64,000 nt of DNA from Escherichia phage vB_EcoM-RPN187. The number at the start of each line of letters is the position of its first letter. Within the stretch, counting starts at the first letter, position 1. A program made the position numbers and the translations under genes. The notes under the pieces were generated by a model. It worked only from the letters and a program-made list of their open reading frames with translations, did not search any database and had not been told where the DNA came from. Positions 1 to 51,894 of this stretch are shown piece after piece. The stretch lies in sequence record OL770074.2. One strand, given 5' to 3'.

Positions 1-421
1 ATGATTTGTGCTTGGCGAATTCAAGACCAGCGTAGTTGACAGCCTTAGCTAATTTATTATCAATGACCCATTTACCGGCTTTAGGCACAAACACCGGGCC
101 TTTCTGTTTAGAGAATAGTTTTAAATTCCAGCGACGAAGATCACTGTCGGCTTTAACAAAAGCTGCGTCTAAGTTACTAGCAACAACATCTTGAATATGG
201 CCAAATTTAAGCCCATCAACTTCAATATTTAAATCGGTACGCCAGCGAAGTCCTTCCCAAGCGAAGGCTTTAAAATCAGAAGCTTTTGTGGCTAGATATC
301 GTTCAAGTGGAGCAGTTTTAGGGTCAAAGCCGTTACCGCCACGATAAGTCCACTCGTCCTTATTAATGCCTTGAGCTTTTCCTGCAAAGGCCTCGGCGAT
401 AAATTCTTTATATGTTTTCAT
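1..421 (-). CDS. internal-protein-like protein with capsid-targeting-sequence N-terminus; C-terminal end lies beyond window start
   Basis: Not in ORF track (partial). Hand translation from ATG at 421-419 runs without stop to position 1: MKTYKEFIAEAFAGKAQGINKDEW... N-terminus matches the T4 IP capsid-targeting sequence (MKTYQEFIAE, from memory). Early promoter immediately upstream (452-481). Confidence 0.5.
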   Translation of the reverse strand, partial: MKTYKEFIAEAFAGKAQGINKDEWTYRGGNGFDPKTAPLERYLATKASDFKAFAWEGLRWRTDLNIEVDGLKFGHIQDVVASNLDAAFVKADSDLRRWNLKLFSKQKGPVFVPKAGKWVIDNKLAKAVNYAGLEFAKHKS

Positions 422-451
422 TTTTGTTTCCTTGTTTGTTTTGATAGAGTA

Positions 452-481
452 ATTATACCATATTAATACTTAAGCGTAAAC
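452..481 (-). promoter_or_regulatory. T4-type early promoter (-35 GTTTAC, 18-nt spacer, -10 TATAAT)
   Basis: Minus strand reads GTTTAC (476-481) then 18 nt then TATAAT (452-457), about 30 nt upstream of ATG at 421. Confidence 0.55.
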
Positions 482-484
482 TGT

Positions 485-745
485 TTAAGCTTTACCGCCG
501 GAAATAATTCCGAAGTTGTTAAAATCGTATCCAATATCGTCAACATCTACTTTAGGACTTGTAGCAACATAAGCAATTTCACTACGTTTTGCATAGGTGT
601 TGATTTCTTTACCATCGCCACCTAAGAAAAAATACCCATTACGTTTTAATGAGCCAAAGTCTTCCGCATCACCAATGAAAGCTTTAACTTTAAATTTAGG
701 ACCTTTGGCATCTGCTTCAGCGATAAATTCTTGATACATTTTCAT
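485..745 (-). CDS. internal-protein-like small protein with capsid-targeting-sequence N-terminus
   Basis: ORF track 86 aa; starts MKMYQEFIAE|ADAKG (I-A-E fits gp21 protease L/I-x-E cleavage consensus). ATG verified at 745-743. Confidence 0.55.
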   Translation of the reverse strand: MKMYQEFIAEADAKGPKFKVKAFIGDAEDFGSLKRNGYFFLGGDGKEINTYAKRSEIAYVATSPKVDVDDIGYDFNNFGIISGGKA

Positions 746-751
746 TTTTCC

Positions 752-1165
752 TTAGTAAATTGATTTACCATAGTATTTGTACCAAGTAGGACGTTGAGCA
801 ATTTTTTCATCTAAGCGTGCTTGACTTATCGCAATGGACGCTTCGGACGGGACATAATTATTACGAAATTCGGCAGGGATGTCGGAAATATCCTGGACAG
901 TCGTGTCCTTGATTTTGAAACCACGTTTCAAGCATTCAGCGATTAGCTCGATTTGTCGTAAACGTAAAAATTCGAGTTTGTCGTAAAAGAATGTTACGTG
1001 GCCGGTGCCTAAGATAAATGTTGGAGAGATTTTAAAATCCCTTACACGTTTACCGTTTTGAACATGTTTACGGACTGCACTAAATACACGTGGTAATTCA
1101 CGATACTCAGCCATAAGATGTTGGTCGGTCAGTTCAGAAACAAGTGTTAAATTGATACGAGTCAT
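752..1165 (-). CDS. denV: endonuclease V, pyrimidine-dimer DNA glycosylase
   Basis: [28 protein letters not shown]...[13 protein letters not shown] is near-identical to T4 DenV over its whole length (memory). ORF track begins at a TTG 4 codons upstream; ATG at 1165-1163 with GGAGGAA SD is the likely start. Confidence 0.9.
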
Positions 1166-1223
1166 AATTTCCTCCAAGTAGTTGATGAATGTATAATATC
1201 AAAACCCTTGGAGGAAGTAAACA

Positions 1224-1505
1224 CTATTTTTCTGAAGCGCCTGAAATATATTTTTCAAGACGTTGTTTCATTAGCGAGCCGTTCTTAGCGATTTCTTCCG
1301 GTTTATCGCACATACGCAACAAGGCTTCAAGCTTAACGATATCGCTGGTACGTTCAAATTTGCGAGTATCTATCTTACTAGCAAGTTCAGAAATACGTGC
1401 TAATAGACTTTCAGCTTCAACCAAAGCTGCGCCTAGCTTAGTTGCAAATGTGTCAGTAGCTTCGTTAAGAATAGATTCTGATAAAAATTCACTATATGTT
1501 TTCAT
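1224..1505 (-). CDS. internal-protein-like protein (ipII/ipIII position between denV and e)
   Basis: From ATG at 1505-1503: [10 protein letters not shown]|[10 protein letters not shown]..., 93 aa; ATGA overlap with lysozyme stop (1502-1504). ORF track starts 5 codons upstream at a TTG. Confidence 0.55.
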
Positions 1506-1990
1506 ATATACGCTTTCCAAGTTCCTGTTTTAAATGTTGAGATTACGCGTTTCGCGCGATTAGGTGTCTGACGATACCATTTAGATTGGGCTAGATTTAC
1601 TGCCGCTTCATCCCAACGTTTCTGTTGAAGCATACGAAGAGAATTAGTAAAACCAGCAACGCCTGCTACACCCATTTGGAAGACCATATTGACCAATGCA
1701 CATCGACGAACCGCATCTAAAGAATCATATACCGGTTTAAGTTTAGCATTACCCAAGATTCCTCGAACGGCTTTATCAACGTCTTCATTAAATAGCTTTT
1801 CGGCCTCATCAAGGGTAATTGTACCGTTGCATTTACGTCCGATCATTCTGTCAAGTTCAGCTTTAGCTACGGCTAAAGACGGGTTCTTTGTTACTAAATG
1901 ACCTATGCCAATCGTCCAAAAGCCTTCAGTGTCTTTGTATAAAGACAGTCTAAGACCTTCGTCATTACGAAGCATTTCAAATATATTCAT
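1502..1990 (-). CDS. e: lysozyme (endolysin), T4 e type
   Basis: [32 protein letters not shown]...[18 protein letters not shown]; near-identical to T4 lysozyme (memory). ATG at 1990-1988 preceded by GGAGG; ORF track starts at an upstream GTG. Confidence 0.95.
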
Positions 1991-8431: not shown

Positions 8432-8935
8432 TCATTTATTTTTAATTTTGCAAATTTTTTCTGCTTCAGCAATTGCAGCGTCAATGATGCTTTGTGCAAT
8501 TTTATTACTAGTTGACCTGGCAATCACACTAAGAACAATTTCTTTTTCTTCACCACCCCAACCCCAAGTCCTTTGTTCGTGGGTACCTTTAACTACAGCT
8601 GAAACTTCAACAGAACGTCCACCATCAGAAGTTTTAACATCTACAACCCAATCACCATCTTTCTCTTCTACCCTTGATTTATCCCAAGAAATACTAATAT
8701 ATGATTCGTTGTCAATAGAAGTCGCCGGGTTTTTCTCTACCGTAAGACCTTCACTTTCCAGCCATTCAATAGTATTTGCGCATAAATCGGAGGAACACCT
8801 CATCGGGAACCGGCAAGATTTTTCACCTTTAGATGCGGCGTTATACATCTTTTCTAAAATACGCTTTTGCACGTTTTTAAAAATAGTTTCAGCAGATTCT
8901 TCAGATTTTTTATTCAGTTCAGTATAAAGACTCAT
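8432..8935 (-). CDS. hypothetical protein
   Basis: ORF track 167 aa; ATG verified with AGGAAA SD; early promoter upstream. Confidence 0.5.
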   Translation of the reverse strand: MSLYTELNKKSEESAETIFKNVQKRILEKMYNAASKGEKSCRFPMRCSSDLCANTIEWLESEGLTVEKNPATSIDNESYISISWDKSRVEEKDGDWVVDVKTSDGGRSVEVSAVVKGTHEQRTWGWGGEEKEIVLSVIARSTSNKIAQSIIDAAIAEAEKICKIKNK

Positions 8936-8963
8936 AACATTTTCCTATGTTGTTGATAAGTCT

Positions 8964-8992
8964 ATAGTATCATGTCCTTAGAAGAAGTAAAC
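8964..8992 (-). promoter_or_regulatory. T4-type early promoter
   Basis: Minus strand GTTTAC (8987-8992), 17-18 nt, TACTAT (8964-8969). Confidence 0.5.
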
Positions 8993-9025
8993 ATCTTTAT
9001 GAAATATTTTTATGCCCTAGATACC

Positions 9026-9052
9026 AAAAAGCCCCAACCGTAAGGAAGGGGC
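9026..9052 (-). terminator. rho-independent terminator
   Basis: gcccc...ggggc stem (9031-9052) preceded on plus by aaaaa, i.e. followed by U-run on minus; just downstream of stop of 9059..9523. Confidence 0.6.
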
Positions 9053-9058
9053 ATTCTA

Positions 9059-9523
9059 TTATTTAATTTGTTTAGCAGACCAGATACGGTCTTTAATAAG
9101 TTTTTGGATATCTTCAACATACTCAAGGCTATGAGCGTGAGGATTATCTTTGAAGCTATGTGCTCGTGCCAGTTTCTGGCCTTCTGTTTTGATTACTAAA
9201 AGCTCTTTAAGAATTGCTTCATACTTAGAAATAATTCCTTTGGCGATATTTTTTTCTTGAGCGGCTTTAGGGTCCGCTTTTGGCGCAGGTGCTTTACCTG
9301 TAGCTTTCTGGAACAATTCACCTGATGCAGCTAGGCTTTTAAAAACTCGGCTAACAGTATTAGCATTAGTAAAACCTTCGGCTTTAAAATCTCTAATAAA
9401 ACGGAAACGTTCTTCATCAGAGGCGTCTTTGTAAGAATATTTACCTGCTCTAATTGCTGCAATCGCAGCGGCTTTTACATCTGAACTAGATTGTTCAGTC
9501 AAAAATTCAGCGTATGATTTCAT
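9059..9523 (-). CDS. internal-protein-like protein with capsid-targeting-sequence N-terminus
   Basis: ORF track 154 aa; MKSYAEFLTE|QSSSD...; Lys/Ala-rich; ATG verified 9523-9521. Confidence 0.55.
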   Translation of the reverse strand: MKSYAEFLTEQSSSDVKAAAIAAIRAGKYSYKDASDEERFRFIRDFKAEGFTNANTVSRVFKSLAASGELFQKATGKAPAPKADPKAAQEKNIAKGIISKYEAILKELLVIKTEGQKLARAHSFKDNPHAHSLEYVEDIQKLIKDRIWSAKQIK

Positions 9524-9567
9524 GTTGCTTTTCCTAAGTTAATTAACTTATCTATTTATTATTATGC

Positions 9568-9595
9568 AAAAAAGCCCCAACCTTTCGGAAGGGGC
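9568..9595 (-). terminator. rho-independent terminator closing the tRNA/stable-RNA transcription unit
   Basis: GCCCCUUCCGAAAGGUUGGGGC followed by UUUUUU on minus; near-copy of the 9026-9052 hairpin. Confidence 0.6.
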
Positions 9596-9602
9596 TATGC
9601 CT

Positions 9603-9905
9603 TGCGGCAACCTTGTCGGGGTTCCACCTGCTAAGGCAAGTGTTTGTACGAAACGCCGGGATTCGAACCCGGTTATTAAGCAGTTGACGCTACTCAATAT
9701 TTTTAAAAGGCCATATCTCGACCATATCCGAACGTTCCGTCAAAAACGCTACTCGGCTTACGGCAAAGATATTTCCTCGAATCGATAATTCTGTGCGCCG
9801 TTTCAGCTGTGATAGTAAAGAACCAGAACACAGTAAAACTGTGGGAGGAACTATACTCCAGGGAACATCAGTCCGACGACTTACCGGTAGCGACCCGGTT
9901 TCTTG
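9603..9905 (-). ncRNA. putative small stable RNA(s) downstream of tRNA-Arg, with tRNA-like T-arm
   Basis: About 300 nt with no credible ORF on the minus strand, between tRNA-Arg and a terminator. Contains a T-arm motif CCGGGUUCGAAUCCCGG (9655-9672) with possible acceptor pairing CGGAACG/CGUUUCG. T4 encodes stable RNA species at the same place (memory). Boundaries not resolved. Confidence 0.3.
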
Positions 9906-9907
9906 TT

Positions 9908-9983
9908 TGGTCGAGGCAGTAGGGGTCGAACCTACGACCTAGGACTTAGAAGGTCCTTGCTCTTCCTTCTGAGCTATGCCTCG
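9908..9983 (-). tRNA. tRNA-Arg (anticodon UCU)
   Basis: Hand-folded: acceptor CGAGGCA/UGCCUCG, D-arm GCUC..GAGC, anticodon loop CUUCUAA, T-arm GUAGG-UUCGACC-CCUAC, CCA encoded. Confidence 0.85.
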
Positions 9984-9987
9984 GATT

Positions 9988-10062
9988 TGGCGGACATGCA
10001 TGGATTCGAACCATGGACCAATTGATTAACAGTCAACTGCTCTACCACTGAGCTACACATCC
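9988..10062 (-). tRNA. tRNA-Asn (anticodon GUU)
   Basis: Hand-folded: acceptor GGAUGUG/CAUGUCC (two G-U pairs), D-arm UAGCUCAGUGGUAGAGC, anticodon loop CUGUUAA, T-loop UUCGAAU, CCA encoded. Confidence 0.75.
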
Positions 10063-10066
10063 AAAT

Positions 10067-10153
10067 TGGTTGGGAGTGATGGAGTCGAACCACCTGAGTC
10101 GCAATGACAATGGATTTACAGTCCACACCGCTACCTCTACGGGATAACTCCCC
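10067..10153 (-). tRNA. tRNA-Tyr (anticodon GUA), long variable arm
   Basis: 87 nt; anticodon stem GUGGA/UCCAU with loop CUGUAAA; T-arm GGUGG-UUCGACU-CCAUC; CCA encoded; 1:72 is a G-A mismatch so the 5' end is approximate. Confidence 0.7.
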
Positions 10154-10162
10154 AAATTAATT

Positions 10163-10237
10163 TGGTGGCCCTGGGTGGAATTGAACCACCATCTGGCGAT
10201 TATGAGTCGCTTGCTTGAACCTTCCAGCTACAGGGCC
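10163..10237 (-). tRNA. tRNA with anticodon CAU (elongator Met or lysidine-type Ile2)
   Basis: Acceptor GGCCCUG/CAGGGCC, anticodon loop CUCAUAA, T-arm GGUGG-UUCAAUU-CCACC, CCA encoded. Occupies the slot of T4 tRNA-Ile in the conserved order. Confidence 0.75.
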
Positions 10238-10238
10238 T

Positions 10239-10314
10239 TGGTGCTGATTGACGGAATCGAACCACCGACCTTCTCATTACAAGTGAGTTGCTCTACCTAC
10301 TGAACTAAATCAGC
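10239..10314 (-). tRNA. tRNA-Thr (anticodon UGU)
   Basis: Acceptor GCUGAUU/AAUCAGC perfect, anticodon loop CUUGUAA, T-loop UUCGAUU, CCA encoded. Confidence 0.8.
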
Positions 10315-10319
10315 AAAAC

Positions 10320-10409
10320 TGGCGGAGGCGATAGGATTTGAACCTATGAGTCGCCGGAGCGACTGCCGGTTTTCAAGACCGGTGCATTAAACCACTCTGC
10401 CACGCCTCC
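10320..10409 (-). tRNA. tRNA-Ser (anticodon UGA), long variable arm
   Basis: 90 nt; acceptor GGAGGCG/CGCCUCC, anticodon stem CCGGU/ACCGG with loop CUUGAAA, T-loop UUCAAAU, CCA encoded. Confidence 0.85.
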
Positions 10410-10411
10410 AG

Positions 10412-10485
10412 TCTCCATACAAGGATTTGAACCTTGGACCTCCTGATCCCAAATCAGGCGCTCTACCAAACTGAGCTACACGGAG
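10412..10485 (-). tRNA. tRNA-Pro (anticodon UGG), CCA not encoded
   Basis: Acceptor CUCCGUG/UAUGGAG, D-arm UAGCUCAGUUUGGUAGAGC, anticodon loop UUUGGGA, T-arm CAAGG-UUCAAAU-CCUUG. Confidence 0.8.
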
Positions 10486-10495
10486 TAAATTAAAT

Positions 10496-10569
<74 letters not shown>

Positions 10570-10574
10570 AAATT

Positions 10575-10661
10575 TGGTGCGAGAAGTGGGACTCGAACCC
10601 ACAAGGAAATCATTCCGCAGCATTTTAAGTGCTGTGCCTTTACCAATTTGACCATTCTCGC
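10575..10661 (-). tRNA. tRNA-Leu (anticodon UAA), long variable arm
   Basis: 87 nt; acceptor GCGAGAA/UUCUCGC, anticodon stem CAGCA/UGCUG with loop CUUAAAA, T-arm GUGGG-UUCGAGU-CCCAC, CCA encoded. Confidence 0.85.
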
Positions 10662-10662
10662 G

Positions 10663-10735
10663 CTGGGAATAAAGGACTCGAACCTTTGCATCCTGGAATC
10701 AAAATCCAGTGCCTTACCAACTTGGCTAATTCCCA
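10663..10735 (-). tRNA. tRNA-Gln (anticodon UUG), CCA not encoded
   Basis: Acceptor UGGGAAU/AUUCCCA, anticodon stem CUGGA/UCCAG with loop UUUUGAU, T-arm AAAGG-UUCGAGU-CCUUU. Confidence 0.8.
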
Positions 10736-10832
10736 ATTATTAACAAAGGCTCTCAAGCAAGAACCCTTGATGATAGAGGGTATTAATCAGTGCGATATGA
10801 GTTAATAATAACAAATAATTCTTAAAGCATAT

Positions 10833-11120
10833 TTACCATTTATGATAATACATATTTACGATGCATTCAAGACCCAAAGGATTCTTGAAAATATCATATT
10901 CAAGAGGACCTTTTTCCGTTTCAATAAAGAAATCAAAGTTAACTGTGTTAAATTTACGGTCTTCCTTTACTAATTTAACTTGAGAAGATGAACGGTCAAT
11001 GTAAACCTTTTCAACTTCAAAACATGTTAAAATGCCATAATCATCAATCAAGGCTTTAGCCGCATCTTGATCATATTTATATCCATTTTCAATGGATGAT
11101 ACTTTCGCATAAAGAATCAT
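10833..11120 (-). CDS. hypothetical protein
   Basis: ORF track 10833..11126 starts at TTG; ATG at 11120 with GAAGGT SD. Confidence 0.4.
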   Translation of the reverse strand: MILYAKVSSIENGYKYDQDAAKALIDDYGILTCFEVEKVYIDRSSSQVKLVKEDRKFNTVNFDFFIETEKGPLEYDIFKNPLGLECIVNMYYHKW

Positions 11121-11122
11121 TA

Positions 11123-11503
11123 TCAACCTTCATCAACAATAGTATGCGTATTGGCATTTACAATTTGCCACCAATCAAAGAGATTAGAACCATACATCAG
11201 TTTGTTTTCATTTTCTTTGATAATATCACGGAGTTCATCTTCAGTGGCGGCTTTCGCGATTAAATCAGCATATCCACCACGAGGATAATAATTATCACCT
11301 GCAAAAAGTAAAAAGTTTGGTTTAATGTTATTGAACTCTTCAAGAGTAATAACTTTTCCTGACGGTTGAACAATCTCTACATATTTATATCCCAATTTTT
11401 GAGCAGCATCTACTGCTTCAAGCAAAGTATCATGAGCCCATCCAATTTGACAACCTGGCTTTTCAGATGGATTAGCCTGATAATCCGCATACACTTTGTA
11501 CAT
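11123..11503 (-). CDS. hypothetical protein
   Basis: ORF track 11123..11542 starts at TTG; ATG at 11503 with AAAGGTGA SD gives 126 aa (MYKVYADYQ...). Confidence 0.4.
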   Translation of the reverse strand: MYKVYADYQANPSEKPGCQIGWAHDTLLEAVDAAQKLGYKYVEIVQPSGKVITLEEFNNIKPNFLLFAGDNYYPRGGYADLIAKAATEDELRDIIKENENKLMYGSNLFDWWQIVNANTHTIVDEG

Positions 11504-11504
11504 T

Positions 11505-11690
11505 CTATTCACCTTTAGAAATTTTATCCATAACGATAGCAATTAAACCAATTAAAAATGCTACTACAAGTGAAAACACATTTTCTGCTGTAGTTAATAA
11601 TCCGCATATAAATCCAACAAACATTGAAAAACTAAAAGCGGAAGCAGAAATTGCAATAGCAACATTTCGAATTAATTCACAACGTTTCAT
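11505..11690 (-). CDS. hypothetical small membrane protein
   Basis: ORF track 61 aa, largely hydrophobic; ATG verified; early promoter upstream. Confidence 0.35.
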   Translation of the reverse strand: MKRCELIRNVAIAISASAFSFSMFVGFICGLLTTAENVFSLVVAFLIGLIAIVMDKISKGE

Positions 11691-11718
11691 TTTATTCTCC
11701 TCTGTAGTTGATAGGGTA

Positions 11719-11748
11719 ATAGTATCACTACCCCATCTAAAAGTAAAC
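11719..11748 (-). promoter_or_regulatory. T4-type early promoter
   Basis: Minus strand GTTTAC (11743-11748), 18 nt, TACTAT (11719-11724). Confidence 0.5.
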
Positions 11749-12021
11749 TCATTTTAAATAAATTGCGTATTTTTTATAGCCACCAGGCTCGTGTCGAAGA
11801 CCCTTATCATTAGCAAAACGCTCAATGTTGTTAATTTGATTCTGGTCAAGTTCAGAGATGTCAAACACGAAATAGTTACGTTTGTTACCAACTGTTACAT
11901 AGTCAGTTAAATCAATACCATATAGGTAATTGATGTCAGCAATCATAGTCTTGACAGCTTTGCTAATTTTTACTTTTTCGTTAAAAGTAGCTTCATTGAT
12001 AAATTCTTTAAATGTTTTCAT
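11749..12021 (-). CDS. internal-protein-like small protein with capsid-targeting-sequence N-terminus
   Basis: ORF track 90 aa; MKTFKEFINE|ATFNE...; ATG verified 12021-12019. Confidence 0.55.
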   Translation of the reverse strand: MKTFKEFINEATFNEKVKISKAVKTMIADINYLYGIDLTDYVTVGNKRNYFVFDISELDQNQINNIERFANDKGLRHEPGGYKKYAIYLK

Positions 12022-12052
12022 TTTATTTTCTTAATTAATTTTGATAGGACCT

Positions 12053-12082
12053 ACTATAACATAGTCCTATCAACATGTAAAC
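12053..12082 (-). promoter_or_regulatory. T4-type early promoter beside a stem-loop
   Basis: Minus strand GTTTAC (12077-12082), 18 nt, TATAGT (12053-12058); inverted repeat taggac...gtcctat at 12044-12070. Confidence 0.55.
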
Positions 12083-12084
12083 TA

Positions 12085-12348
12085 TTAAATACCTGCTTCG
12101 CGCTTAACATAAGCAACATAAGCTTCGATAGCTTTCTTGCTGGTAATTTTTACCTGACCGCGTCCGTTGCCTTCTTTAGAGTTTTTCTTAACAACTACAT
12201 TACCATCTTTAACACCCCATACATGGACATAAGTACCGATGTTTCGGTCGTAGAACATTGCATGGTCGTTGTTGTAAGAGAATGATTCGTAGTTCTCTGT
12301 CAGAGTAGAAGATTGAGATTCAGCGATAAATTCTTTATACGTTTTCAT
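12085..12348 (-). CDS. internal-protein-like small protein (ipI position) with capsid-targeting-sequence N-terminus
   Basis: ORF track 87 aa; MKTYKEFIAE|SQSS...; ATG verified 12348-12346; lies between tRNA cluster and 57B as ipI does in T4. Confidence 0.55.
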   Translation of the reverse strand: MKTYKEFIAESQSSTLTENYESFSYNNDHAMFYDRNIGTYVHVWGVKDGNVVVKKNSKEGNGRGQVKITSKKAIEAYVAYVKREAGI

Positions 12349-12382
12349 TTTATTTCCTTGAGGTCGTTTATTTGATAGGATG

Positions 12383-12412
12383 ATAGTAACACACCATCAT
12401 CCTTATGTAAAC
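12383..12412 (-). promoter_or_regulatory. T4-type early promoter embedded in a stem-loop
   Basis: Minus strand GTTTAC (12407-12412), 18 nt, TACTAT (12383-12388); inverted repeat aggatgat/atcatcct around the -10. Confidence 0.55.
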
Positions 12413-12425
12413 TGTTTTGTGAAAA

Positions 12426-51865: not shown

Positions 51866-51894
51866 AAAAAAGGCCCGACCTTTTTGGAAGGGCC
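51866..51894 (-). terminator. terminator-like hairpin for the minus-strand uvsY-region transcript
   Basis: Minus strand GGCCCUUCC-AAAAA-GGUCGGGCC followed by UUUUUU. Confidence 0.45.

What the first reader, a model, noticed from the sequence alone, without database searches (positions are those of the whole stretch)
9026..9595. Near-identical terminator hairpins bracket one internal-protein-like gene
The hairpins at 9026-9052 and 9568-9595 share aaaaagccccaacc...ggaaggggc and flank the 9059-9523 gene. Duplicated terminators on both sides suggest this gene was inserted as a cassette by recombination within the terminator.
Basis: seen in the sequence. Interest (0 to 1): 0.4.

Follow-up and report, generated by a model that had tools for sequence, protein, structure and literature searches.

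The report
Repeated terminator flanking swappable phage gene
Two copies of one transcription-terminator hairpin bracket a small capsid-internal-protein-like gene in a T4-like phage, and relatives that lack the gene keep exactly one hybrid copy, so this is a real but already known kind of gene-cassette gain and loss.

Summary
On the transcribed (-) strand, 9574-9595 and 9031-9052 read GCCCCTTCC-loop-GGTTGGGGC followed by T6/T5. The stems are identical, the loops differ (GAAA vs TTAC), and 27 of 32 nt match. No other copy lies in the window and none is expected by chance.

The window is a Mosigvirus, about 100% identical to phage AV112. Copy B ends the tRNA-rnaD-rnaC unit. A late-promoter-like AATAAATA and a ribosome-binding site then drive a 154-aa gene (X) with the internal-protein leader MKSYAEFLTE. 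Copy A ends X, and an early promoter restarts transcription.

Related phages show the predicted polymorphism. T4, T2 and PST have no gene and one terminator, whose left flank matches A and right flank matches B. RB69 lacks X and has one terminator followed directly by a second cassette, Y. AR1 and RB32 carry X between 35-nt identical copies. Other phages hold X+Y, Z or W in the same slot.

The direction of the event is unresolved. X diverges between genera about as much as its neighbours (74%), so loss in T4-like genomes is at least as likely as insertion here. Y is 95% identical across genera, which indicates recent cassette exchange.

The phenomenon is known (Repoila 1994; PeSL papers 2010 and 2014). 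RB32's GenBank record already notes the flanking repeat.

The parts
9568..9595 (-). Hairpin B: intrinsic terminator GCCCCTTCC-GAAA-GGTTGGGGC (9595-9574) plus T6 (9573-9568). It ends the tRNA-rnaD-rnaC transcription unit and is the upstream copy of the direct repeat.
   Evidence: The same site is present after rnaC in T4, T2, AR1, RB69, PhAPEC2 and others.
9553..9560 (-). Late-promoter-like box AATAAATA, a 7/8 match to the T4 late consensus TATAAATA, 8 nt after the T-run of hairpin B.
   Evidence: One search gives the coordinates. The homologous position is a perfect TATAAATA in AR1, YwIITB1, mar005P1, the G8-like locus L043 and L021. It is annotated as a T4 late promoter in phage SA20RB.
9528..9536 (-). 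Shine-Dalgarno region TAGGAAAAG of gene X.
9059..9523 (-). Gene X: 154-aa internal-protein-like ORF with N-terminal MKSYAEFLTE (capsid-targeting-sequence-like, L-x-E cleavage motif). It is predicted all-alpha and its function is unknown. An A7 run at 9249-9255 is frameshifted in some relatives.
   Evidence: (phrog_2280, unknown function).
9026..9052 (-). Hairpin A: intrinsic terminator GCCCCTTCC-TTAC-GGTTGGGGC (9052-9031) plus T5 (9030-9026). It ends gene X and is the downstream copy of the direct repeat.
9016..9025 (-). GGTATCTAGG: a 10-nt remnant of the backbone sequence that follows the single terminator in T4/T2 and the last cassette terminator in AR1, PhAPEC2 and phiC120. Homology to those genomes ends here.
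   Evidence: BLAST breakpoints at query 585-596.
8964..8992 (-). T4-type early promoter GTTTAC-N17-TACTAT, which restarts transcription into the 167-aa gene. Together with hairpin A it forms a terminator plus early promoter (PeSL-like) composite.
   Evidence: The consensus TTTACW-N17-TAYWAT for the T4/PST pair is from PMC4122927.
9647..9785 (-). rnaC (species 1 RNA) homologue, the conserved left anchor of the slot.
   Evidence: 137/139 identical to T4 rnaC; T4 annotation.
9793..9903 (-). rnaD (species 2 RNA) homologue.
   Evidence: 94/120 identical to T4 rnaD.
8432..8935 (-). Downstream 167-aa gene (context only). It takes the place of e.8/e.7 of T4 and is mosaic, with a homology breakpoint near 8675.

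Best explanation
The two hairpins are two copies of one Rho-independent terminator. They delimit a self-contained, late-transcribed cassette (late promoter, ribosome-binding site, internal-protein-like gene X, terminator) in a hyperplastic slot just downstream of rnaC in T-even phages.

How it works for transcription: copy B stops early/middle transcription coming out of the tRNA-rnaD-rnaC cluster. An AATAAATA late promoter 8 nt after its U-run drives X. Copy A stops X transcription. An early promoter 38 nt further on restarts transcription of the downstream e.x genes. The cassette is therefore insulated from its neighbours.

How it works for evolution: the roughly 32-35-nt direct repeat is a substrate for T4-type homologous recombination. 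An exchange between the two copies, or between a resident terminator and the copy on a donor molecule or excised circle, removes or adds the cassette and leaves one hybrid terminator.

Shown here: the repeat, its RNA fold, the promoter and leader motifs, the occupied and empty alleles with exact hybrid junctions in two genera, and the mosaic boundaries at the hairpins.

Inferred: that the hairpins terminate transcription in vivo, that X is packaged in the capsid, and the recombination pathway and its direction. For this lineage I judge that X is old and that the T4/T2/PST/RB69 states are mostly deletions.
For: - The repeat is real and non-random.
- It folds as a hairpin plus U-run on the - strand.
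- Variants of the hairpin in other phages keep pairing through C-to-U and A/G wobble-compatible changes that only work on the - strand RNA, plus one compensatory C-G to G-C swap.
- T4 and T2 have a single hairpin with the A-type flank (..ctagatacc) on one side and the rnaC flank on the other, and no gene. AR1 has X between two copies identical over 35 nt.
- A 161-nt T2 empty-site query matches as one piece in T2, T4, RB7 and F2, but as two pieces spanning 716-720 nt in X-carrying phages.
- RB69 has one hairpin followed by the sequence that lies downstream of copy A in PhAPEC2, then Y. PST is empty.
- X is present in 469 phage records, against 735-779 records that match the rnaC-side region.
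- BLAST homology breakpoints fall at the hairpin edges, query 585-596 and 1133-1138.
- Y is 94.9% identical between a Tequatrovirus and a Mosigvirus, while the adjacent X is 74.0% and e.6 is 79.3%.
- X orthologues carry a late promoter TATAAATA directly after the U-run.
- The leader motif occurs only in 6 ORFs of the window, all in IP-type loci.
- RB32's GenBank note on the X orthologue reads 'flanked by 34 bp imperfect direct repeat'.
- The published model is PeSL-mediated modular shuffling (PMC2839356, PMC4122927).
Against: - There are no transcript data, so termination and promoter use are inferred from sequence.
- The stems carry a 2x2 U.U internal loop, and copy A has only five U.
- The window's late box is 7/8 (AATAAATA).
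- Cassettes Y, Z and W in the same slot have unrelated terminators, so identical flanking terminators are not needed for exchange.
- The same 22-nt stem occurs in many unrelated phage contexts, so stem identity alone is weak evidence for a local duplication.
- Once the polymorphism exists it can spread through crossovers in the conserved flanks (tRNA/rnaC on one side, e.6 and nearby genes on the other) rather than in the hairpin.
- Insertion versus deletion cannot be decided from junction sequences.
Confidence: 0.8

Rival explanations
1. Polarity reversed. X with both terminators is the ancestral state at this site, predating the Tequatrovirus/Mosigvirus split. Nothing was inserted in this lineage. 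The single-terminator genomes (T4, T2, PST, RB7; RB69 for X) arose by deletion between the direct repeats.
For: X occupies the same site in both genera and is 74% identical between them, similar to e.6 (79%) and e.5 (64%). It is present in 469 records, a majority of T-even records. All observed states can be derived from an X+Y array by deletions at T/T (35 nt) or GGGCTTTTT homology. Frameshifted X alleles and a large natural deletion ending inside X show that the gene is dispensable.
Against: The very first acquisition still needs an insertion. Y shows that cassettes do move between genera. No rooted phylogeny was built.
Confidence: 0.5
2. There was no duplication event. X arrived with its own terminator, which happens to belong to the same widely used T-even terminator family. 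The similarity of A and B reflects family-wide conservation, or later gene conversion, rather than the scar of an insertion.
For: The same stem, GCCCC-NN-CC/GGTTGGGGC plus T5, occurs in at least 80 IMG/VR stretches with many unrelated flanks. A third copy sits after rI in the same phage, AV112; in SQ17 that site matches hairpin B over 32 nt (H100). Y, Z and W bring their own different terminators. Both copies share lineage-specific stem variants, GA in Tequatrovirus and TT in Mosigvirus, which suggests homogenisation.
Against: In AR1 the identity extends beyond the stem into both flanks (35/35 nt). The empty alleles are exact hybrids of the two copies in two genera. The copies therefore do act as the recombination endpoints, whatever their origin.
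Confidence: 0.25
3. A dedicated, sequence-specific recombination system recognises the GCCCC...GGGGC hairpin (integron/attC-like) and moves the cassettes, rather than general homologous recombination.
For: Arbiol et al. speculate on this for PeSL stem-loops. In the same passage they cite Mosig 1998: GGGC/GCCC motifs at about half of 13 T4 deletion endpoints (PMC2839356). The junctions of Y and W share GGGC plus a T-run.
Against: No recombinase is linked to the locus. T4 recombination works on homologies under 50 bp. The hairpin is an ordinary terminator in most contexts.
Confidence: 0.05
4. Chance or convergent similarity of two independent GC-rich terminators.
For: Strong terminators share GC-rich stems, tetraloops and U-runs.
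Against: There were 0 matches in 100 shuffles against 2 observed. Both copies share non-pairing U.U positions. The empty alleles have hybrid junctions.
Confidence: 0.01

Closest known systems
PeSL (promoter-early stem-loop) regulatory cassettes of T4-like phages (Arbiol et al. 2010, PMC2839356; Comeau et al. 2014, PMC4122927)
   Same: Short repeated intergenic regulatory elements, each a terminator stem-loop next to a promoter, flank non-essential ORFs in hyperplastic regions. They sit at insertion, deletion and replacement boundaries between close relatives and insulate the cassette transcriptionally. Hairpin A plus GTTTAC-N17-TACTAT fits the T4/PST-type layout, with the stem-loop just upstream of the promoter.
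   Different: Hairpin B is followed by a late promoter (TATAAATA-type), not an early one. The repeated part is only the terminator and U-run (32-35 nt), not the roughly 70-nt composite. The stem is a strong GCCCC/GGGGC type, whereas the paper describes AGNA-loop-TCNT stems for T4/PST. Mini-circles were not and could not be tested here.
Conserved promoter/stem-loop flanks of the T-even internal-protein loci (Repoila, Tetart, Bouet, Krisch 1994, EMBO J 13:4181). The paper is not held in the library; it is cited through PMC2839356 and PMC4122927 and from my own recollection.
   Same: IP-type genes with a conserved N-terminal leader are shuffled among T-even phages between conserved regulatory sequences. 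The window's own ipI locus shows exactly such flanks (GTTTAC-stem-loop-TACTAT at 12349-12425, 12022-12084 and 11691-11748).
   Different: This slot (rnaC to e.8) is neither of the two IP loci those papers describe. Arbiol et al. state that IP genes are absent elsewhere in T-even genomes. The flanks here are a GC-rich terminator plus a late promoter.
RB32ORF133c in the RB32 GenBank record DQ904452
   Same: It is the orthologue of gene X at the same site. The record's note reads 'flanked by 34 bp imperfect direct repeat', which is the same observation as this finding.
   Different: It is annotated only as a hypothetical protein. No terminator, late promoter, IP-like leader or cassette polymorphism is noted.
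Morons of lambdoid phages (Hendrix et al. 2000, as discussed in PMC2839356)
   Same: A single accessory gene with its own promoter and terminator, inserted between resident genes.
   Different: Morons are not thought to move through their regulatory sequences. Here the terminator repeat is the indel endpoint.

Membership tests
Rho-independent (intrinsic) terminator | GC-rich stem-loop in the transcript | tested here: met
   5 GC pairs, a 2x2 U.U internal loop, 2 GC pairs and a tetraloop; -16.1 and -21.5 kcal/mol in 46-nt windows. 89.9% of cells are paired across 11 variants, with one compensatory pair.
Rho-independent (intrinsic) terminator | U-run immediately 3' of the stem, on the coding strand, downstream of a gene or RNA | tested here: met
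   T6 after B and T5 after A on the - strand. B lies 51 nt after rnaC, and A starts 6 nt after the X stop codon.
Rho-independent (intrinsic) terminator | Demonstrated transcript 3' ends at the site | not testable with these tools
   No transcriptome data are available. Other annotators predicted terminators at the orthologous sites with ARNold, WebGeSTer and TransTermHP.
PeSL (Arbiol 2010 / Comeau 2014) | Composite of an early (sigma-70-like) promoter and an adjacent stem-loop | tested here: inconclusive
   Copy A is met: the hairpin is followed 38 nt later by GTTTAC-N17-TACTAT. Copy B is not met: it is followed by a late-type AATAAATA box, and only 50 nt separate it from the start codon.
PeSL (Arbiol 2010 / Comeau 2014) | Repeated in the genome and preferentially found in hyperplastic regions next to variable ORFs | tested here: met
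   Two copies lie in the window and a third lies after rI in AV112. The slot holds nothing, X, Y, X+Y, Z or W in different phages.
PeSL (Arbiol 2010 / Comeau 2014) | Located at indel or replacement boundaries between close relatives | tested here: met
PeSL (Arbiol 2010 / Comeau 2014) | Formation of excised mini-circles by recombination between neighbouring elements | not testable with these tools
   This needs inverse PCR or long reads from lysates.
T4-type internal (capsid-injected) protein | N-terminal capsid targeting sequence of the MKTYQEFIAE type, ending in an L/I-x-E prohead-protease site | tested here: met
   X begins MKSYAEFLTE. The motif M[KY]x[YF]x[EQ]F[LITV]xE occurs in only 6 ORFs of the window, all at IP-type loci. 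The role of the CTS is from PMC3012670. The exact consensus and cleavage rule are from my own knowledge.
T4-type internal (capsid-injected) protein | Presence in the virion and processing by gp21 | not testable with these tools
   There are no proteome data for X. The alternative occupant of the same slot, Z, is annotated 'confirmed structural protein by MS' in mar005P1.
T4-type internal (capsid-injected) protein | Sequence homology to a named IP family | tested here: not met
   phrog_2280 has unknown function. There is no Pfam hit. All 10 homologue clusters are 'hypothetical'. No informative fold match was found.
T4-type internal (capsid-injected) protein | Location in one of the two described IP loci (ipI; ipII/ipIII) | tested here: not met
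   X lies between rnaC and the e.x genes. The window's ipI-type locus is at 11749-12348 and its ipII/III-type locus is at or below 1520.

The most novel reading that the evidence does not exclude
The site just after the rnaC terminator may be a third, undescribed internal-protein cassette locus of T-even phages. Its portable linker would be a 'terminator plus late promoter' composite (GGGGC-U-run-TATAAATA), a late-promoter counterpart of PeSL/PmSL. The conserved GCCCC..GGGGC hairpin, with its oddly conserved U.U internal loop, is dispersed through many phage genomes and would be a preferred, possibly protein-recognised, crossover point for exchanging injected anti-defence proteins between phage genera.
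Probability: 0.15. Interest if true: 0.55.

Novelty: new member of a known kind. Interest (0 to 1): 0.27.

Why it matters
Internal proteins of T-even phages are injected with the DNA, and at least one (IPI*) disarms a host restriction system. How phages swap such genes bears on host range and on phage-therapy design. This locus gives a very clean natural example of regulatory-element-bounded cassette gain and loss. Empty, single and double-occupied alleles with exact hybrid junctions occur in two genera, and one cassette (Y) has recently been exchanged between genera. It adds no new principle. The mechanism class was proposed in 1994 and 2010-2014, and the flanking repeat of the orthologous gene is already noted in RB32's GenBank record.

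Tried and rejected
- The simple terminator scan did not report either hairpin. I rejected this as negative evidence, because I attribute the miss to the 2x2 internal loop breaking its stem/loop rule.
- Rfam at E<=1 over 8900-10900 found only the tRNAs and nothing for the hairpins or rnaC/rnaD.
- Pfam, PHROGs, the homologue search, an AlphaFold model (pLDDT 75.7, all-alpha) and Foldseek against BFVD and PDB gave no function for X. The ferritin-like PDB hits have E>0.3 and rmsd near 20 A, so I dismissed them.
- Repoila 1994 (PMC395341) is not held. The supplements of Comeau 2014 are not held. A search for the ORF names in the literature found nothing.
- I considered that hairpin A might be a bidirectional terminator, because its loop reads GTAA on the + strand. 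I rejected this: there is no + strand gene, A.A mismatches would form, and no U-run follows.
- I tried to count empty versus occupied alleles exactly from BLAST. This failed because the tool joins pieces up to 500 nt apart, so only spread samples and the totals are given.
- Covariation support for the stem is modest (49 of 500 shuffles reach the observed values), because one arm never varies in the copies collected.

Full report
**1. What the window is**

The region is about 100% identical to Escherichia phage AV112, a Mosigvirus in the Tevenvirinae. All genes here are on the - strand. Reading in the direction of transcription (high to low coordinates), the order is:
- two IP-type genes (12085-12348 and 11749-12021);
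- trna.x genes;
- ten tRNAs (10735 to 9908);
- rnaD (9793-9903) and rnaC (9647-9785, 137/139 identical to T4);
- hairpin B;
- gene X (9523 to 9059);
- hairpin A;
- a 167-aa gene, a 93-aa gene, then e.6, e.5 and e.4.

In T4 the order is the same, except that rnaC is followed by one terminator and then e.8.

**2. The observation**

On the - strand, hairpin B reads GCCCCTTCC GAAA GGTTGGGGC TTTTTT (9595-9568). Hairpin A reads GCCCCTTCC TTAC GGTTGGGGC TTTTT (9052-9026).
- They form a 32-nt direct repeat at 84% identity, 543 nt apart.
- They are the only matches in 64 kb even with three mismatches allowed; no shuffle gave any match.
- Both fold as five G-C pairs, a 2x2 U.U internal loop, two G-C pairs and a tetraloop, followed by a U-run.
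- The consensus terminator scan missed them. I attribute this to the internal loop.

**3. Anatomy of the unit**

- Eight nt after the U-run of B lies AATAAATA (9560-9553). A Shine-Dalgarno sequence follows at 9536-9528, and the ATG is at 9523.
- In orthologous loci the same position is a perfect T4 late promoter TATAAATA: AR1, YwIITB1 and mar005P1; L043 and L044; L021. It is annotated as a T4 late promoter in SA20RB.
- X (154 aa) starts MKSYAEFLTE. The motif M[KY]x[YF]x[EQ]F[LITV]xE occurs in only six ORFs of the window. The other five lie in the ipI-type locus (two) and the ipII/III-type locus (three, one running off the window start). This is the capsid-targeting leader that characterises T-even internal proteins (PMC3012670).
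- After hairpin A come 10 nt of 'backbone' sequence (GGTATCTAGG, 9025-9016) and then a T4-type early promoter GTTTAC-N17-TACTAT (8992-8964). The published consensus is TTTACW-N17-TAYWAT (PMC4122927).
- X is therefore a transcriptionally insulated unit driven by a late promoter.
- X itself has no known function. The evidence is phrog_2280 of unknown function, no Pfam domain, ten homologue clusters all 'hypothetical', an all-alpha model with pLDDT 75.7 and no informative fold matches.

**4.

| Slot content | Phages | Terminator state |
|---|---|---|
| Empty | T4, T2, PST | One hairpin between rnaC and e.8 |
| X | AR1, RB32, this window | Two copies flank X |
| Y only | RB69 | One hairpin, then Y |
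| X + Y | PhAPEC2, phiC120, YwIITB1 | rnaC - T - X - T - Y - different terminator |
| Z | mar005P1, UGJNEcP2 | Z has its own UUCG-loop terminator |
| W | a VR25-like contig | W has its own terminator |

Details behind the table:
- In T4 and T2 the sequence downstream of the single hairpin (..GGTATCTAGG) is the one that follows copy A in this window. The upstream side is the rnaC 3' end, as for copy B.
- In AR1 the X orthologue lies between two copies that are identical over 35 nt. RB32 is annotated with the same arrangement.
- A 161-nt T2 'empty site' query matches as one 161-nt piece in T2, T4, RB7 and F2. In X-carrying phages it matches as two pieces spanning 716-720 nt.
- In RB69 the single hairpin after rnaC runs straight into the sequence that lies downstream of copy A in PhAPEC2, followed by cassette Y.
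- Y is 187 aa and begins MKTYAEFLTE.
- Z is 208 aa, begins MYTFNEFLAE and is annotated 'confirmed structural protein by MS'.
- W is 184 aa and membrane-like. It is inserted directly after the rnaC terminator, with GGGC-T6-ATA microhomology at both junctions.
- X occurs in 469 phage records, against 735-779 records that match the rnaC-side region.
- BLAST homology breakpoints against other genomes fall exactly at the outer edges of the two hairpins.

The predicted polymorphism exists in two genera, and the refuting outcome was not found.

**5. Direction and age**

- Window X versus AR1 X is 74.1% identical, compared with 79.0% for e.6 and 63.8% for e.5.
- YwIITB1 versus PhAPEC2 gives X 74.0%, e.6 79.3% and e.8 86.9%, but Y 94.9%.
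- X therefore looks old and largely vertical, with two genus-specific alleles. The single-terminator genomes are most simply deletions between the repeats.
- Y shows that a cassette bounded by these hairpins has recently moved between genera.
- X is dispensable. Some relatives have frameshifts at its A7 run (9249-9255). One metagenomic protein fuses the trna.3-like gene to the last 30 residues of X, which implies a deletion of the whole tRNA cluster.

**6. Is the repeat a scar of insertion, or simply two members of a common terminator family?**

- The same stem with a free central dinucleotide and loop occurs in at least 80 IMG/VR stretches in many unrelated contexts. The central dinucleotide is most often the non-pairing TT and never the perfectly pairing AA.
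- AV112 has a third copy after rI. In SQ17 that site matches hairpin B over 32 nt (H100). T4 uses a different terminator at that locus.
- Stem identity alone is therefore weak evidence.
- The strong evidence is the flank identity in AR1 and the exact hybrid junctions in T4, T2 and RB69.
- Variants of the hairpin differ by C-to-U and A/G changes on the 5' arm, which keep pairing only in the - strand RNA. One variant has a compensatory C-G to G-C swap. This is consistent with selection on the transcript hairpin.

**7. Relation to what is known**

- Repoila et al. 1994 described conserved promoter/stem-loop flanks at the two polymorphic IP loci (as summarised in PMC2839356). The window's ipI locus shows these flanks.
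- Arbiol 2010 and Comeau 2014 generalised the idea to PeSLs and PmSLs and proposed recombination and mini-circles between them.
- The present pair works in the same way.
- It differs in three respects. The shared segment is only the terminator. Copy B is coupled to a late promoter rather than an early one. The slot is not one of the two described IP loci; Arbiol et al. state that IP genes are absent elsewhere.
- The flanking repeat of the orthologous RB32 gene is already recorded in GenBank as 'flanked by 34 bp imperfect direct repeat'.

**8. Verdict**

It is unproven, and probably wrong for this lineage, about 'insertion'. The biology belongs to a known kind. Interest is low to moderate.

Noticed in passing
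AV112 record OR352942, locus L012 43469-43490 (about 6.3 kb before the window start): A third copy of the hairpin (GCCCCTTCC TTAT GGTTGGGGC T6) lies directly after rI and is followed by an early promoter. In Mosigvirus SQ17 the same site has the GAAA loop and matches hairpin B over 32 nt. T4 uses an unrelated UUCG terminator at that locus.
   Followed up: partly
IMG/VR loci L015-L094: The stem GCCCC-NN-CC / GGTTGGGGC plus T5 occurs in at least 80 viral stretches with many unrelated flanks, including T4-like contigs of 170-180 kb and other phage groups. NN is mostly the non-pairing TT, sometimes GG, GA or TG, and never AA. The conserved U.U internal loop is unexplained.
   Followed up: partly
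window 51872-51894 (-): A diverged relative of the hairpin (GGCCCTTCC AAAAA GGTCGGGCC T6) with the internal mismatch at the same position. The similar contexts in other T4-like contigs look like terminators between convergent genes.
   Followed up: no
window 11691-12425: The ipI-type locus holds two IP-like genes (MKTYKEFIAE, MKTFKEFINE). Each is preceded and followed by the classical early-promoter-with-embedded-stem-loop elements (GTTTAC-stem-loop-TACTAT), which are quite different from hairpins A and B.
   Followed up: partly
window 1-1520: Three more leader-bearing IP-like ORFs lie next to lysozyme e and a denV-like gene: 1224-1505 ([10 protein letters not shown]), 485-745 (MKMYQEFIAE) and one starting at 421 that runs off the window start (MKTYKEFIAE).
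   Followed up: no
window 9249-9255: An A7 run lies inside X. The database proteins P0007, P0008 and P0009 (for example from Shigella phage SfPhi01) are X truncated by a frameshift there. This is either pseudogenisation or sequencing error.
   Followed up: partly
window about 9150 and about 11170 (protein P0010): A metagenomic protein fuses the N-terminal part of the trna.3-like gene (11123-11542) to the last 30 residues of X at a K(E/D)N microhomology. This implies a natural roughly 2-kb deletion that removes all tRNAs, rnaD, rnaC and most of X.
   Followed up: no
L006 2553-3116 vs L004 2254-2817: Cassette Y (187 aa, RB69ORF149c-like) is 94.9% identical between a Tequatrovirus and a Mosigvirus, while the adjacent X is 74%. 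This indicates a recent inter-genus exchange bounded by the hairpins. In the RB69 reference Y is split by a frameshift into ORF149c and ORF148c.
   Followed up: yes
L021 vs L055 (VR25-like IMG/VR contigs): A non-IP cassette W (184 aa, membrane-like) is present or absent directly after the rnaC terminator. It starts with TATAAATA overlapping the U-run, and the junctions share only GGGC-T6-ATA.
   Followed up: partly
window 8432-8935: The 167-aa gene downstream of hairpin A is mosaic: phrog_18312 on residues 1-92 and phrog_8232 on residues 86-167. Many relatives lose homology near 8675. The window lacks e.8, which nearly all compared phages have.
   Followed up: no
window 9647-9903: Homologues of the T4 stable RNAs rnaC and rnaD are present. 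rnaC is 137/139 identical to T4, while rnaD is much more diverged. No Rfam family matched them.
   Followed up: no
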